A DNA stretch of 64,000 nucleotides from Escherichia coli (GTDB lineage: Bacteria > Pseudomonadota > Gammaproteobacteria > Enterobacterales > Enterobacteriaceae): the NCBI RefSeq assembly GCF_044324785.1, contig NZ_CP172128.1; one strand, 5' to 3'. Position numbers: made by a program. The stretch's first letter is position 1. Every line of letters begins with the position of its first letter. Shown here piece by piece: positions 21,501 through 27,500 of the stretch.

Positions 21501-24500
21501 AGCATGTCCCTGATTTCAAACCAGGTGGCAGCATTCCACCATCCAGCGTCATGTTGTTCTGCGATGCCACTCTCTTCCAGGGCGAGATCCACAAGGGGCT
21601 CTGTTCCTGCACGGTACAGTCTGGGGTTGTTTTCGCCATACTCCCTGAAGGCCAGATCCACCAGGTTGCTTATGATTTGCCGGGTGTCTCCGGGATTACA
21701 GGGCTGACCGGTGCCGGTATCCACGCACAGTGCGCAGAGTACAGATACCATGAAGTTCTTTTCCGGGGTGGCGGGTTTTTTAGCACCGTACATCACATCA
21801 AACAGGTTACGGGTGTGTTCCGGATCATTGCTCAGAATGATCCCCACGGCTTCGTCCTTTCTCTGCTCCGGCAGGCTGTCACGGATAAGCTGTACCAGTC
21901 CCTGTGCACTGAATCCCTTGTCGATATAGGCAATGAAAGGCAGGTTCTTCTGGGCTGAGGCTATCTGGATCTCCGACAGTGCGTTGATGAGTACCGATTT
22001 GCCCAGACCGGGTGCGCCGGGCGTCAGTTCCGTGTGCTTGTTCTGTTGTGACGATGCCAGTGCGACCTCCCATGCAGAGCCGTCCTCGGTGTGCATCATC
22101 AGATTTCCCTGTCCCCGCCAGACAGAGCCGGCCCTGTTCAGGGGAAACAGGGAAAGGGCGTGTGAAAGGGGCGGGTAAAGGGGGACTGGACCGGAACCGT
22201 GGGAGGCCGCCAGAACCGTGTTCACCCAGGCACGTCTCGGATCACCGAAGGTGGTGGTGGTGCCGCATACTCCCCAGCCTTCCAGCGCAGATTTCAGGAG
22301 CGCCTGGTTGCGGGTACAGACTTCCCGGCTGTTTCCCCATGTGGTGGCAACAATGGTCATGATACAGACCGGATCATGTTTGTTGATGTCATTCAGCATC
22401 ATCACCGAGTCATACATGGGCCGGAGAGGGGAAATAAAGCTGCTGTAGGTCAGCAGGGTTTTCTTGACCCCAAGCGCCTTCATGCCGCCGGGCATCAGAT
22501 CCATCCGGATACGCCAGGGGATTGCGCGGGGCACATCCCTGACCAGCTGGTTGAATGTCCGCAGATTCTGGGGGGGCAGGGTAATGGCGACCATACCGTG
22601 CCAGAGGTCACCGGCCTTTATCAGGCTGCCGTGTGTTTCAGGCTGTGTGGTGAATAACTGCAGATTCAGCGACGGTGCGTGGAATACAGAGGTATCCTCG
22701 CCCTGTCGCCAGCCGGCAGGACGGGCATCTTCAGGCAGATGAGGCTGCCATACTGCAGGTGTGCTGTTGCGCTCCAGTTGACGGCGGATTTCCCGTCCCA
22801 CTTCATGAATATCCATCAGGCGAACCAGCAGACCATCAGAATCATGTGTCAGGGCCTGCTCCAGCGTGTCCAGAAAGGCGTCATGCCGTATTTTGAGTGC
22901 GGAAAGTGTCCAGCGCCATGGATCCTGCGCAAATCGGGCTGGCGGAGCGTGTTCAGCGAGTTTCCTGATACGGGTCTGGTGGTCCTTGCGATCGGTCCGG
23001 CTCAGCAGTTCTTCAGAGCTCCAGACGGTCAGCCAGCAGCGTTCCCGGACAAGCCAGGGGGTGAGCGTGGTGACTTTTTCATCCAGAACGTCCTGAAGCA
23101 GGATCCCCGTGCGTGCGATGGATTTTCGCTGGGGTAAGAGCATGGCTTCGATTTCATCCCTTCCACGCTCCGGATCGCGTTCGAAAACAAAACTGATTTT
23201 GTGACCGGTGTTTTTATAGGCAGTGTTCATTCGCTCTGCCAGCGCTGTAATCAGTGATTCCAGTGTGCCGGGGGCTGTCAGGTCCGGGTTTTCATCCATT
23301 TCTTTCAGGGCACCGCTGATTTCAAAGACGGAAAGGTAATACCCCTGTTTTGTGGTGGCAATGTAGGGGGCTTTCAGCCAGGGGCGGCGTTCGCGGTCCT
23401 GCTGGTCCAGACCGATGACGGTGTGCAGATCACAGTAATCGGGGAAGAATGCGGAAACGGAATACCGTGACAGGGTACTGATACAGTCTTCAATGGCAAA
23501 AATAATGCGGTTGATATTCATGGCATGGGGCACTCCGGTAAGGATGAATCATCACGGTCTTATATTTTTTGATGCCACAGCAGGGGATGTGGCATGAAAA
23601 AACAGCAGAGAAAATAAATAATCTGTTGAGGGGCAGGTGCGTATTTCTGTAAGCGTCAACGGAGCACCGTATTGACGCTTATTTATTGGTGAGTACTACG
23701 TTCCATGGCAGGAGTTCATCAACTCGGTTGGAAGGCCATTCCGGCAGTACGCTCAGGATATGGCGCAGATACGCTTCCGGAGCGATACCGTTCAGACGGC
23801 AGGTGCCGATCAGCCCGTACAACAGTGCTCCACGCTCGCCGCCGTGATCGCTGCCAAAGAACATAAAGTTTTTCTTTCCGAGACAGACTGCACGAAGCGC
23901 TCTTTCCGCAGCATTATTATCCGCCTCCGCCAGACCGTCATCACTGTAATAACAGAGGGCATCCCACTGATTCAGTACATAGCTGAACGCTTCGCCCAGT
24001 CTGGATTTTTTCGACAGCGTACCATTCTTCTCCACCATCCATTCATGCAGCGACGTCAGTAACACTTTGCTTCGCTGCTGCCTGACGGCAAGACGCTCTG
24101 ACTCCGGTAATCCCCGTATTTCATCCTCGATGGCGTACAGTTCACTGATTCGCTTCAGGGCTTCTTCTGCCGTCGCACTTTTGCTGCTGATGTATACATC
24201 GTGGATTTTTCGCCGGGCATGGGCCCAGCACGCAACTTCTGTCAGTGCACCACCTTCACGTTCTGCACTGAACAACCTGTCGTAACCTGTGAACGCATCC
24301 GCCTGCAGGATACCCCGGAAGGGGCGGAGGTGTTGCTCCGGGTGTTTCCCCTGCCGGTTCGGCGAGTACGCGAACCAGACCGCTGGAGGAGATGACGAAC
24401 CCACATTGCGATCATCCCGGACATACGTCCAGATACGCCCTGTTTTCGCCTTTTTCTGACCCGGTGCCAGTACCTTTACCGGTGTGTCATCAGTGTGAAC

Positions 24501-27500
24501 CTTGCGGGTGTTCATTACATAACGGTACAGGGCATCATTCACCGGTGTCATTAACTGGCAGCACGCGTCAACCCAGTTGGAGAGTAAGGCCCGGCTCAGT
24601 TAGACACCCTGGCGGGCAAAGATTTCACTCTGACGATACAGTGGCAGATGTTCGCAGTATTTTCCCGTTAACACGCGGGCAAGTAATCCGGGGCCCGCGA
24701 TACCACGCTCTATCGGGCGGGACGGCGCCGGTGCTTCAACAATACAGTCACATTTTGTACAGGCTTTTTTTACCCGTTCTGTGCGGATCACTTTCAGGGC
24801 ACTGCTCACCAGTTCCAGCTGTTCAGCGCTGACTTCCCCCAGATAATCCAGCTCACCGCCACACTCCGGGCAACAGCTTTCTTCTGGCTCCAGGCGGTGT
24901 ATTTCACGGGGAAGGTGTGCCGGTAACGGACGACGATGGCGCGACTGTCGCAACTGGCGGGGAACCTGAGGATCGTCTTCCCGCCCACTGTAACGATCGC
25001 TGTCCTGCTCACGTTGTTTCAGCAGAGCCTCAGCCAGTTCAACTTCACGACGCAGTTTTTCAGAACGGGTACCGAACAGCATCCGGCGCAGTTTTTCTAT
25101 CTGAGCCCGCAGATGTTCTATTTCCCGTTCATCTTCTTCGATCTTTTCTTCGGCACGTGTCAGTGCAGAGCGCAGGAAGGCTTCCGTCTCTTCAACCAGA
25201 CTCAGTTGCTGGTCTTTCTGACGGAGGGCTTCAGCCTGCTCAGAGAGCAACCTTTCCAGCTCTGCGATGCGAATGAGGTATTTCTGACTCATGACCGTTT
25301 TTATAATGCGGTCAGGAGTTTTTTACAACATTGTCAGTGAGTTACGGCTGGATGTTTTTGGCTGACGCCAGTCCAGCTTATCGAGGAGCATTGCCAGTTG
25401 CGAGCGGGTAATGGATACCTTGCCGTCACGTACCGCAGGCCAGATAAACTGGCCTTCCTCCAGGCGTTTGGTGAACAGGCACAGACCATCAGCATCAGCC
25501 CAAAGAATTTTGACGGTGTCACCCCGTCGGCCACGGAAGATAAACAGGTGACCGGAGAAGGGATTATCATTCAGCACATGTTGTACCTGTTCTCCCAGTC
25601 CGTTGAAGGATTTACGCATATCGGTAACGCCGGCAACGAGCCAGATACGGGTACCTGATGGGAGTGAGATCATCTTCCCCTCCCGGTCAGTTCACGGATC
25701 AACACTGTGAGCAGCTCTGGCGATGGATTTTCCAGCGTCATGTTACCGTGACGGAATTCCACCTTGCAGGAACTGGCACTGACTCTGGTCTGAGTGGAAG
25801 TGGATAAAGACGGCGCAATGGCCGCCACAGGTTCTTTCTGCTCATCCGGCGTTATTTCTACAGGTAATAATTCAACGCCAGTGTCAGAAGAGGTCGTTAC
25901 CGGAAGACGCCGCGAAACACGCCCTTCGTTCTGCCAGAGCCTGAGCCATTTGAAAATAACATTATCATTGACGCCATTTTCACGTGCAATCTGTGCAACA
26001 CAAGCTCCAGGTTGTGATGCCAGTTCCACCATACGAAGTTTGAATTCATTCGAATAGTTTTTACGAGGTTCTTTTCGCCAGTCCTGTAATTCCATACTTA
26101 GATGTCCGTCTATATCAGATGGGCGTCTAAGTTACCAATTCTCGTCTGATGGCTACATACGGCGGTCAGTTTACGCTTACGTATTTCTGTGTGATTACAG
26201 TAAATAATAAAAATGTAATAAGGTGGAAACACGCTGTCAGCGTAGTGAATTTACTGGCGGATAAGTGATTTTATTAATATGTACAACAATACATTTTCTT
26301 TTTTCATTTCGTATAAATACAGGGGGGATATAAAAGAAACGGAGACTGCAGAGACAGAGATGCAGTTGTTTTCCCCGTTTCCTTAATGAAAATTCACTCA
26401 GGGGTGTGGCCGGATAATTATGCCGGGCGCTTAATTCCCTGTTGAACTGAAGTATTCCGGCAATATTCAGCAGTACGCCGGCCAGCCTGCCGTCATCATC
26501 CCGCAGGAAACGACGGAGTAGCCGGTGCTCTTCTTTGGCGGTACTGTCAGTTTTTCCGGCCAGGTGTGCGTGGATGAGTGTTATAAGCGTCTCCGGGGAT
26601 ATGCGGTGAATTTTCATCATTCTTCTCCTGATTTTGTCGGGGGCACACCCGGATAGATAAACTGCTGGCGGCGAATGAAAAAATCACAGAAGGGCATATC
26701 CGGTAATTCCGGGAGACCGGATACGGCAATATCCATCCATGAGAGATAGTTATCGACGCTCACTGTGACGGTGATGCTGTTATGGGTACGGGATCTTTCA
26801 TGAATTTCTGCAGCCAGAAAGAGCAGCCAGCCGCCGTTAAATGCCGGGTGGCGGAGAATGAACCGGGCAATCTCTTTTTCAACTCCATCAGGCGGAATAT
26901 CGTCCGTCAGTGTCCGGATAATAAAGTGCCGGAATGCATCAGCGGTGAACTGATATGCGGCAGAGAGGGTATTCATTTTTGTTCCTCTGTAAGTTGAGAG
27001 GGCCGGCAGAACGTCATCGGTACCGGTGTGGGAGGGCTGCATCACCAGACGAACTCCCTGTCAGGAAACGAATCCGGCAGCAGAATGAGCGCCACCCCGT
27101 CCATTTTCTCCCGCAGTGTTTTACGCTGTGCCGGCGGCCAGCGGCGCAGTGCATCAGCAAAATCCGCCGGACGCCAGGTGCGAAATTTCTCCTCAACGGC
27201 CAGGCGGTTCTGTACCAGGGCATTCAGTACGGCCCGTCCCTGTCTGACTCGCTTACGCTCATCGCTGAAAATTTCCTTCAGTGCCCGTGCATTGAGAGCA
27301 ACCACCGAGGCCGGATGCAAATCAGGGAGCCAGACCATCACCCCCTGTGCGGCAGCGTAGCCGTTCAGGCAGTGCCAGGCGTGGCAGAAGGCACAGAGAT
27401 GAAAGGGCGGGCCTTCCGGCTGCAGCAGTTCACTTTCATTTTCGCTGAGTGCATCTGTTGTGACGATTTGTGACTTTTCCACATGACGCAGGGCCAGTCG

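What the first reader, a model, noticed from the sequence alone, without database searches (positions are those of the whole stretch)
23679..25292. IS66 tnpC also carries a single in-frame TAA
TnpC is split into 230-aa and 290-aa ORFs that are in the same frame; the only interruption is TAA (complement of 24600-24602) in ...ARQGV*LSRALLSNWV.... tnpA and tnpB are intact, and the element has intact IRs and target duplication, so the insertion looks recent yet the transposase is already knocked out by one base. This parallels the IS256-family lesion.
Basis: seen in the sequence. Interest (0 to 1): 0.45.

Follow-up and report, generated by a model that had tools for sequence, protein, structure and literature searches.

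The report
Broken ISEc23 copy that still moved
A known jumping gene (ISEc23) on a poultry E. coli plasmid has its transposase cut short by a single stop codon, but that stop was inherited from an older copy on the same plasmid, so this is an ordinary defective copy that most probably moved using a transposase supplied from elsewhere.

Summary
Window 23649-26180 (minus strand) is a 2532-bp ISEc23 (IS66 family) with imperfect inverted repeats, an 8-bp target duplication, and intact tnpA and tnpB. Its tnpC has one in-frame TAA at the complement of 24600-24602. The ancestral codon is GAA (Glu231), a residue conserved in ISCro1 TnpC. NCBI's PGAP annotation already marks the gene as a pseudogene ("internal stop") in the source record, E. 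coli plasmid pLH10-b-1-A.

The implied order of events, insertion first and knock-out later, is not supported. The same TAA and the same private D504A change occur in a second ISEc23 copy 105 kb away on the same plasmid. That copy sits at a different site with its own target duplication. The same allele at that second site also occurs in three French plasmid records. The one examined, pF1022-2, has the window's insertion site empty. So the stop predates the window insertion.

The window copy is most probably a non-autonomous element mobilised by TnpC supplied in trans. Neither plasmid carries an intact ISEc23 tnpC. Gene conversion between copies and homogenisation during assembly polishing are the remaining rivals.

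The "parallel" IS1414 lesion is also GAA→TAA, but it is one old insertion inherited at a single locus.

Overall this is ordinary insertion-sequence decay with a modest twist, and interest is low.

The parts
23649..26180 (-). Complete ISEc23 (IS66 family) copy, 2532 bp
   Evidence: It is 99.84% identical (4 SNPs) to copies that PGAP names ISEc23.
26181..26188 (.). 8-bp target-site duplication, left copy relative to the element (GTATTTCT on the plus strand, AGAAATAC on the element's strand)
   Evidence: the empty site with a single copy was found in other plasmids
23641..23648 (.). 8-bp target-site duplication, right copy
26153..26180 (-). Left inverted repeat (GTAAGCGTAAACTGACCGCCGTATGTAG...)
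   Evidence: identical to canonical copies, with no SNPs at the ends
23649..23676 (-). Right inverted repeat (its reverse complement reads GTAAGCGTCAACGGAGCACCGTATTGAC...)
25670..26095 (-). tnpA, intact (141 aa; HTH_Tnp_1)
   Evidence: protein WP_000422741.1
25323..25673 (-). tnpB, intact (116 aa; TnpB_IS66); overlaps tnpA by ATGA
   Evidence: protein WP_000624722.1
23679..25292 (-). tnpC pseudogene (537 codons plus the natural stop) with one internal stop
   Evidence: PGAP note 'internal stop'
24600..24602 (-). In-frame TAA at codon 231; the ancestral codon is GAA (Glu); the G>T change is at IS position 1579 (window 24602)
   Evidence: Glu is conserved in ISCro1 TnpC
24600..25292 (-). N-terminal 230-aa ORF: leucine-zipper (60-130) and zf-IS66 (138-182) modules plus the first 35 residues of the DDE domain
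23679..24551 (-). C-terminal 290-aa ORF starting at Met247: most of DDE_Tnp_IS66 and DDE_Tnp_IS66_C; no obvious ribosome-binding site upstream
23782..23782 (-). Private missense SNP of the stop-bearing lineage (IS position 2399 A>C, GAT>GCT, D504A)
25008..25008 (-). Synonymous SNP (IS position 1173 A>G, E95E), shared with a stop-free copy in a chicken E. coli chromosome
23718..23718 (-). Synonymous SNP (IS position 2463 C>T, D525D), shared with stop-free copies

Best explanation
The window holds a non-autonomous copy of the known insertion sequence ISEc23. Its transposase gene tnpC carries a nonsense mutation (GAA to TAA at Glu231) that stops translation 35 residues into the DDE catalytic domain. 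The mutation did not arise at this site. It was already present in an older ISEc23 copy ('locus A'), which is nested in an IS1414 remnant beside an autotransporter gene on the same plasmid. That defective element, with intact ends and intact tnpA and tnpB, was later copied into the traT-traU interval of the IncI-type transfer region, making a fresh 8-bp duplication. Neither this plasmid nor the sister plasmid examined (pF1022-2) encodes an intact ISEc23 TnpC. The transposase was therefore most probably supplied in trans by an intact ISEc23 elsewhere in some host cell, on the chromosome or another plasmid. Shown here: the lesion, the ancestral codon, the identity of the two copies, their distinct target duplications, and the order of events (locus A occupied while the window site is empty in pF1022-2). 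Inferred: that the move was a transposition and not a gene conversion, and where the transposase came from.
For: (1) Against canonical ISEc23 the window copy differs at 4 positions, and only G1579T breaks the frame (GAA>TAA). (2) The 61-mer around the stop is exact in only 2 of 2567 matching E. coli records and 4 of 1005 matching plasmid records. These are pLH10-b-1-A (two places) and three French plasmid records with one place each at the same coordinate. (3) The second copy in pLH10-b-1-A has no mismatch to the window copy on either side of a later ISEc45 insertion near IS position 2313. It has a different 8-bp duplication (AAACAGCG, against AGAAATAC in the window). (4) pF1022-2 carries the same four SNPs at locus A plus one extra synonymous change, and its traU-traT interval runs uninterrupted across the window's insertion point. 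(5) The empty site is 100% identical in three other plasmids, and no other record has ISEc23 at this site. (6) Neither plasmid carries any other ISEc23-like tnpC; the only other match in the local BLAST is 76% identity over 259 bp, to the ISCro1 elements. (7) The GAA-allele 61-mer occurs in 1830 of 5426 complete E. coli genomes, median 2 places, so potential trans donors are common. (8) The nearest stop-free copies carry 2463T, or 1173G plus 2463T, so the lineage-private changes are only E231* and D504A.
Against: No trans donor was identified, because the LH10-b-1 chromosome could not be searched with these tools. To my knowledge trans-complementation has not been shown experimentally for IS66-family TnpC, and many bacterial transposases prefer to act in cis (established knowledge for IS10, IS50, IS903 and IS911). 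Gene conversion between two 2.5-kb direct repeats on one plasmid would give the same end state. The window copy's TAA rests on a single assembly.
Confidence: 0.7

Rival explanations
1. Gene conversion. An intact ISEc23 from the host inserted at the window site using its own transposase. RecA-dependent non-reciprocal recombination with the locus A copy on the same plasmid then overwrote it, transferring the TAA and the other SNPs.
For: The two copies are 2.5-kb direct repeats on one replicon and are now base-identical. Intact ISEc23 copies are common in E. coli.
Against: It needs an extra step and a conversion tract of at least 1.3 kb covering IS positions 1173-2463. No record shows a GAA copy at this site.
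Confidence: 0.14
2. Assembly or polishing artefact. The window copy actually carries GAA, and multi-mapped short reads or consensus polishing copied the locus A allele onto it.
For: Repeated insertion sequences are prone to homogenisation during polishing (general knowledge). The window copy's sequence rests on one assembly.
Against: The allele itself is real, since it appears in four plasmid records. If the host held canonical copies, polishing bias would favour the GAA allele, not TAA. All four SNPs agree between the two copies, not just the stop.
Confidence: 0.07
3. Independent mutation after insertion. The element inserted intact, and the same G>T then arose at this site.
For: None beyond the lesion itself.
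Against: It needs the identical transversion, plus the identical D504A change, to arise twice. The same allele exists at locus A in plasmid records from two countries.
Confidence: 0.01
4. Self-mobilisation or mobilisation by a different element. One option is that low-level readthrough of UAA, or reinitiation at Met247, yields enough TnpC activity in cis. The other is that the intact ISCro1 TnpC on the same plasmid recognises ISEc23 ends.
For: The stop is followed by C (UAA-C), a relatively weak UAA context according to Poole et al. 1995, which I recall and did not check here. The ISCro1 and ISEc23 inverted repeats share the GTAAGCG tip and an ACCGTATTGA core.
Against: The plasmid has no tRNA gene, so no plasmid-borne suppressor. 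Readthrough of UAA in E. coli is normally well below 1% (general knowledge). A fragment starting at Met247 would lack the DNA-binding modules and the conserved ELSRA segment. ISCro1 TnpC is only 51% identical.
Confidence: 0.08

Closest known systems
ISEc23 (IS66 family), canonical copies encoding TnpC WP_000080195.1, e.g. on pEC958 and in E. coli JJ1886
   Same: Same length (2532 bp), identical ends, and identical TnpA and TnpB proteins; 2528 of 2532 bases are identical; 8-bp target duplication.
   Different: tnpC carries E231* and D504A plus two synonymous changes, so this copy cannot make full-length transposase.
The TAA-bearing ISEc23 at 'locus A' of pLH10-b-1-A, pF1022-2, NZ_OY757114.1 and NZ_OY757127.1
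   Same: Same allele. The pLH10-b-1-A locus A copy matches the window copy base for base, and the pF1022-2 copy differs by 1 base.
   Different: Different insertion site (inside an IS1414 remnant) and a different duplication (AAACAGCG). In pLH10-b-1-A that copy is additionally split by ISEc45.
Non-autonomous insertion-sequence derivatives mobilised in trans (defective IS copies, MITE-like elements)
   Same: Intact ends with no functional transposase, yet found at a new site with a fresh target duplication.
   Different: This copy is full length and differs from an autonomous element by one base. It keeps both accessory genes. Trans action of IS66-family TnpC is inferred here, not demonstrated.
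IS1414 (IS256 family) nonsense copy in the same window (4263-5471)
   Same: Also GAA>TAA in the transposase, also an allele shared by several plasmids, and also flagged 'internal stop' by PGAP.
   Different: It is found at one and the same locus in plasmids from Switzerland, France and China, so there is no evidence it moved after inactivation. An intact IS1414 is present on the same plasmid.

Membership tests
IS66 family | Three consecutive ORFs tnpA-tnpB-tnpC, with tnpA and tnpB overlapping (ATGA) | tested here: met
   tnpA is at 25670-26095, tnpB at 25323-25673 with an ATGA overlap, and tnpC at 23679-25292.
IS66 family | TnpC with IS66-type DDE domain, zinc finger and leucine zipper; TnpB of the PF05717 type | tested here: met
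   In the repaired TnpC: DDE_Tnp_IS66 9e-98, DDE_Tnp_IS66_C, zf-IS66 and LZ_Tnp_IS66. TnpB_IS66 scores 1e-36.
IS66 family | Imperfect terminal inverted repeats beginning GTAAGCG and an 8-bp target duplication | tested here: met
   the empty site confirms the duplication
ISEc23 (the specific element) | Near-identity to reference ISEc23 (isoform level) | tested here: met
   4 differences in 2532 bp against copies that PGAP names ISEc23. The ISfinder reference itself was not available for comparison.
Autonomous (self-mobilising) insertion sequence | Uninterrupted transposase reading frame | tested here: not met
   There is one TAA at codon 231 of 537, inside the DDE domain.
Non-autonomous element mobilised in trans | The defective copy is present at two or more sites with independent target duplications, and the lesion predates the newer site | tested here: met
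Non-autonomous element mobilised in trans | An identified source of functional transposase and demonstrated trans activity | not testable with these tools
   Neither plasmid has an intact ISEc23 tnpC. The host chromosome could not be queried, and no experimental report was found.
Programmed recoding (stop-codon readthrough) | The stop is conserved across family members, with a readthrough-promoting context or a suppressor | tested here: not met
   The TAA is exact in only 2 of 2567 E. coli records that hold this 61-mer. ISCro1 has Glu at this position. The plasmid has no tRNA gene.

The most novel reading that the evidence does not exclude
The stop-bearing ISEc23 is natural evidence that IS66-family TnpC works efficiently in trans on a copy that supplies only its ends, and perhaps TnpA and TnpB. 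A further possibility is that its 230-aa N-terminal fragment (leucine zipper plus zinc finger, no catalytic core) persists as an end-binding inhibitor that dampens ISEc23 activity in cells carrying the plasmid, analogous to truncated transposase regulators in IS1, IS911 and Tn5.
Probability: 0.12. Interest if true: 0.4.

Novelty: already known. Interest (0 to 1): 0.2.

Why it matters
It matters little for biology at large. ISEc23 is a well-known element, the pseudogene is already flagged in RefSeq, and transposase decay on IS-laden plasmids is routine. Two points have modest value. First, it is a caution for annotation and for dating insertion-sequence activity: intact ends plus a fresh target duplication do not mean the copy was autonomous when it inserted. 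Second, it is a natural hint that IS66-family transposase can act in trans, which to my knowledge has not been tested experimentally. The insertion also lies inside the IncI-type transfer operon, just upstream of the traU-like gene, so it may affect conjugation of this poultry-associated plasmid. That was not tested.

Tried and rejected
1. A Pfam scan of the raw tnpC reference failed because of the stop. It was repeated with the repaired protein.
2. I looked for a plasmid-borne suppressor tRNA that could read both TAA-interrupted transposases. There are no tRNA genes on the plasmid, so that idea is rejected.
3. The promoter and terminator scan of 23300-26500 found 6 promoter-like sites against 3.3 expected and 1 terminator-like site against 3.1 expected. 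This is uninformative.
4. I tried to read the IS679/IS66 functional paper (Han et al. 2001) by DOI and by a guessed PMC id; it is not held. Searches for ISEc23, IS679, IS66 with tnpC, 'in trans' and the strain name gave nothing on trans-complementation or on this plasmid.
5. I tested ISCro1 on the same plasmid as a possible transposase donor. Its TnpC is 51% identical and the inverted repeats are only partly similar, so this is unlikely but not excluded.
6. I tested whether the IS1414 nonsense copy had also moved. It is at the same locus in pE15-3 and pF1022-2, so there is no such evidence.
7. I could not establish whether the LH10-b-1 chromosome holds an intact ISEc23. The similarity search lists at most 60 of about 6600 matching records and cannot be filtered by record.
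Full report
**What is there.** The minus strand of window 23649-26180 is a complete 2532-bp IS66-family element. It begins GTAAGCGTAAACTGACC... and ends ...CGTTGACGCTTAC. It is flanked by an 8-bp direct repeat, AGAAATAC on the element's strand and GTATTTCT on the plus strand at 23641-23648 and 26181-26188. It encodes three genes:
- tnpA (25670-26095), with an HTH_Tnp_1 domain.
- tnpB (25323-25673), with a TnpB_IS66 domain, overlapping tnpA by ATGA.
- tnpC (23679-25292).

The tnpC frame contains exactly one stop, TAA at the complement of 24600-24602, in ...ARQGV*LSRALLSNWV....

**Where the window comes from.** The element with its flanks is 100% identical to NZ_CP100531.1, the 169,272-bp plasmid pLH10-b-1-A of E. 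coli LH10-b-1 (pooled poultry faeces, Switzerland). The window corresponds to record positions 105273-169272 on the same strand. The plasmid has an IncFII-type repA, an IncI-type transfer region with pil genes and a shufflon, and a very heavy insertion-sequence load.

**Ancestral codon.** Three canonical ISEc23 copies were compared: CFS3292 chromosome, JJ1886 chromosome and pEC958. All encode TnpC WP_000080195.1. The window copy differs from them at four positions:

| IS position | Window coordinate | Change | Effect |
|---|---|---|---|
| 1173 | 25008 | A>G | E95E, synonymous |
| 1579 | 24602 | G>T | GAA>TAA, Glu231>stop |
| 2399 | 23782 | A>C | D504A |
| 2463 | 23718 | C>T | D525D, synonymous |

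The Glu is embedded in RQGVELSRA, which is identical in the 51%-identical TnpC of ISCro1. In the repaired protein the stop lies 35 residues into the DDE_Tnp_IS66 domain (196-486). It comes after the leucine-zipper (60-130) and zinc-finger (138-182) modules. Full-length transposase therefore cannot be made. The downstream 290-aa ORF starts at Met247, has no evident ribosome-binding site, and lacks both the DNA-binding modules and the conserved ELSRA segment.

**The allele is shared and sits at two sites.** I searched a 61-mer centred on the stop.
- It is exact in only 2 of 2567 matching records of complete E. coli genomes.
- It is exact in 4 of 1005 matching plasmid records.
- Those records are pLH10-b-1-A, with two places, and three French plasmid records (NZ_OY754359.1 = pF1022-2, NZ_OY757114.1 and NZ_OY757127.1), with one place each at the same coordinate.

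The second place in pLH10-b-1-A ("locus A", record about 19.9-23.9 kb, outside the window) is an ISEc23 nested in an IS1414 remnant beside an autotransporter gene. Its own 8-bp duplication is AAACAGCG. It has no mismatch to the window copy on either side of a later ISEc45 (IS110-family) insertion near IS position 2313. pF1022-2 has the same locus A copy with the same four SNPs plus one extra synonymous change in tnpA.

**Order of events.**
- Joining the window's flanks with a single copy of the repeat gives an 808-bp sequence. It is uninterrupted and 100% identical in three plasmids (NZ_KY689635.1, NZ_KY565558.1, NZ_OQ534119.1) and about 99% identical in many others.
- No other record carries ISEc23 at this site.
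- pF1022-2 holds the TAA copy at locus A. Its traU-traT interval aligns straight across the window's insertion point at 99.5% over 1432 bp.

The TAA allele at locus A is therefore older and shared, and the window insertion is derived and private to pLH10-b-1-A. The stop was present when the element inserted.

**Lineage.** The nearest stop-free copies carry 2463T alone (pEC129_1), or 1173G plus 2463T (chromosome of chicken isolate ECCNB12-2, which has one further private change). The two synonymous SNPs are therefore standing variation among functional elements. The stop-bearing lineage's own changes are E231* and D504A, both protein-altering. That fits loss of constraint, though two events prove nothing.

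**How the defective copy moved.** Local BLAST of both complete plasmids finds no other ISEc23-like tnpC. The only other IS66-family elements are ISCro1, which show 76% identity over just 259 bp. The simplest mechanism is trans-complementation. TnpC made by an intact ISEc23 elsewhere in some host cell acted on the intact ends of the plasmid copy, which still supplies TnpA and TnpB. Potential donors are common, because the GAA-allele 61-mer is in 1830 of 5426 complete E. coli genomes at a median of two places. I could not test whether strain LH10-b-1 itself has one. To my knowledge trans activity of IS66-family TnpC has not been tested experimentally, and the held literature gave nothing on it. 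My recollection is that IS679 needs all three ORFs to transpose (Han et al. 2001); that paper could not be read here.

**Rivals.**
- Gene conversion of an originally intact insertion by the locus A copy gives the same end state. It needs an extra step and a conversion tract of at least 1.3 kb.
- Homogenisation of the two copies during assembly polishing is possible for the window copy only, because the allele itself appears in four plasmid records.
- Independent recurrence of the same G>T together with the same D504A is negligible.
- Readthrough or a plasmid-borne suppressor is unsupported. The plasmid has no tRNA gene, the stop is not conserved in other copies, and the IS1414 stop sits in a UAA-U context, which I recall as a strong terminator.
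- Cross-mobilisation by ISCro1 is conceivable, since the inverted repeats share a tip and a core. It is weakened by only 51% TnpC identity.

**The IS1414 parallel.** The IS256-family transposase at 4263-5471 has TAA at 4710-4712. An IS256-family fragment elsewhere on the plasmid has GAA there. The nonsense allele is exact in six E. coli records, and the five listed include pF1022-2 and three Chinese chicken plasmids. In pE15-3 and pF1022-2 it lies at the same locus as in the window (IS3, then a hypothetical gene, then IS1414*). It is therefore one old inherited insertion and shows no movement after inactivation. An intact IS1414 exists on pLH10-b-1-A. Both lesions are G>T changes turning GAA into TAA, but two events do not establish a mutational signature.

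**Verdict.** The element is a known insertion sequence and the lesion is already annotated. The phenomenon is ordinary decay of a transposase gene. The only added interest is that a one-base-defective, full-length IS66-family copy is caught at two sites with independent target duplications. That implies mobilisation in trans, or less probably gene conversion.

Noticed in passing
window 4263-5471 (stop at 4710-4712): The IS1414 (IS256-family) transposase also has GAA>TAA. The allele is exact in six E. coli records and lies at the same locus in plasmids from Switzerland, France and China, so it is one old inherited insertion. An intact IS1414 copy is at record 8714-9922 of the same plasmid.
   Followed up: yes
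window 23521-23648 and 26189-26620: ISEc23 sits inside the IncI-type transfer operon, in the same orientation as the tra genes and about 116 bp upstream of the 1018-aa traU-like gene. A polar effect on conjugation is possible but was not assessed.
   Followed up: no
L002 (NZ_CP026935.2, CFS3292 chromosome), flanks of ISEc23: An unrelated chromosomal ISEc23 insertion has the same 8-bp target duplication (AGAAATAC) as the window copy. This hints at a target-sequence preference for ISEc23.
   Followed up: no
L007 (NZ_CP100531.1 record 19925-23902, outside the window): The donor-like ISEc23 copy is nested in an IS1414 remnant and is itself split by ISEc45 (IS110 family) near IS position 2313. That gives three layers of nested insertion sequences.
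   Followed up: partly
window 1-1340 (ISCro1, continuing upstream of the window): An intact ISCro1 (IS66 family) spans the window's left edge. Its CGCTTAC end was found, but no GTAAGCG left end turned up in the 270 bp upstream of tnpA. The left end may be variant or truncated.
   Followed up: no
window 43227-47193: A site-specific integrase gene is followed by an unannotated gap of about 1.2 kb (44713-45934) and then pilV. This looks like a typical IncI shufflon region, and the segments are not annotated in the record.
   Followed up: no
L012-L015 (pF1022-2) compared with pLH10-b-1-A: The two plasmids share long syntenic blocks but differ by inversions and rearrangements bounded by IS3 and IS1 copies. 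pF1022-2 also carries a duplicated leading-region and relaxase module. These are mosaic plasmids from poultry and hens.
   Followed up: no
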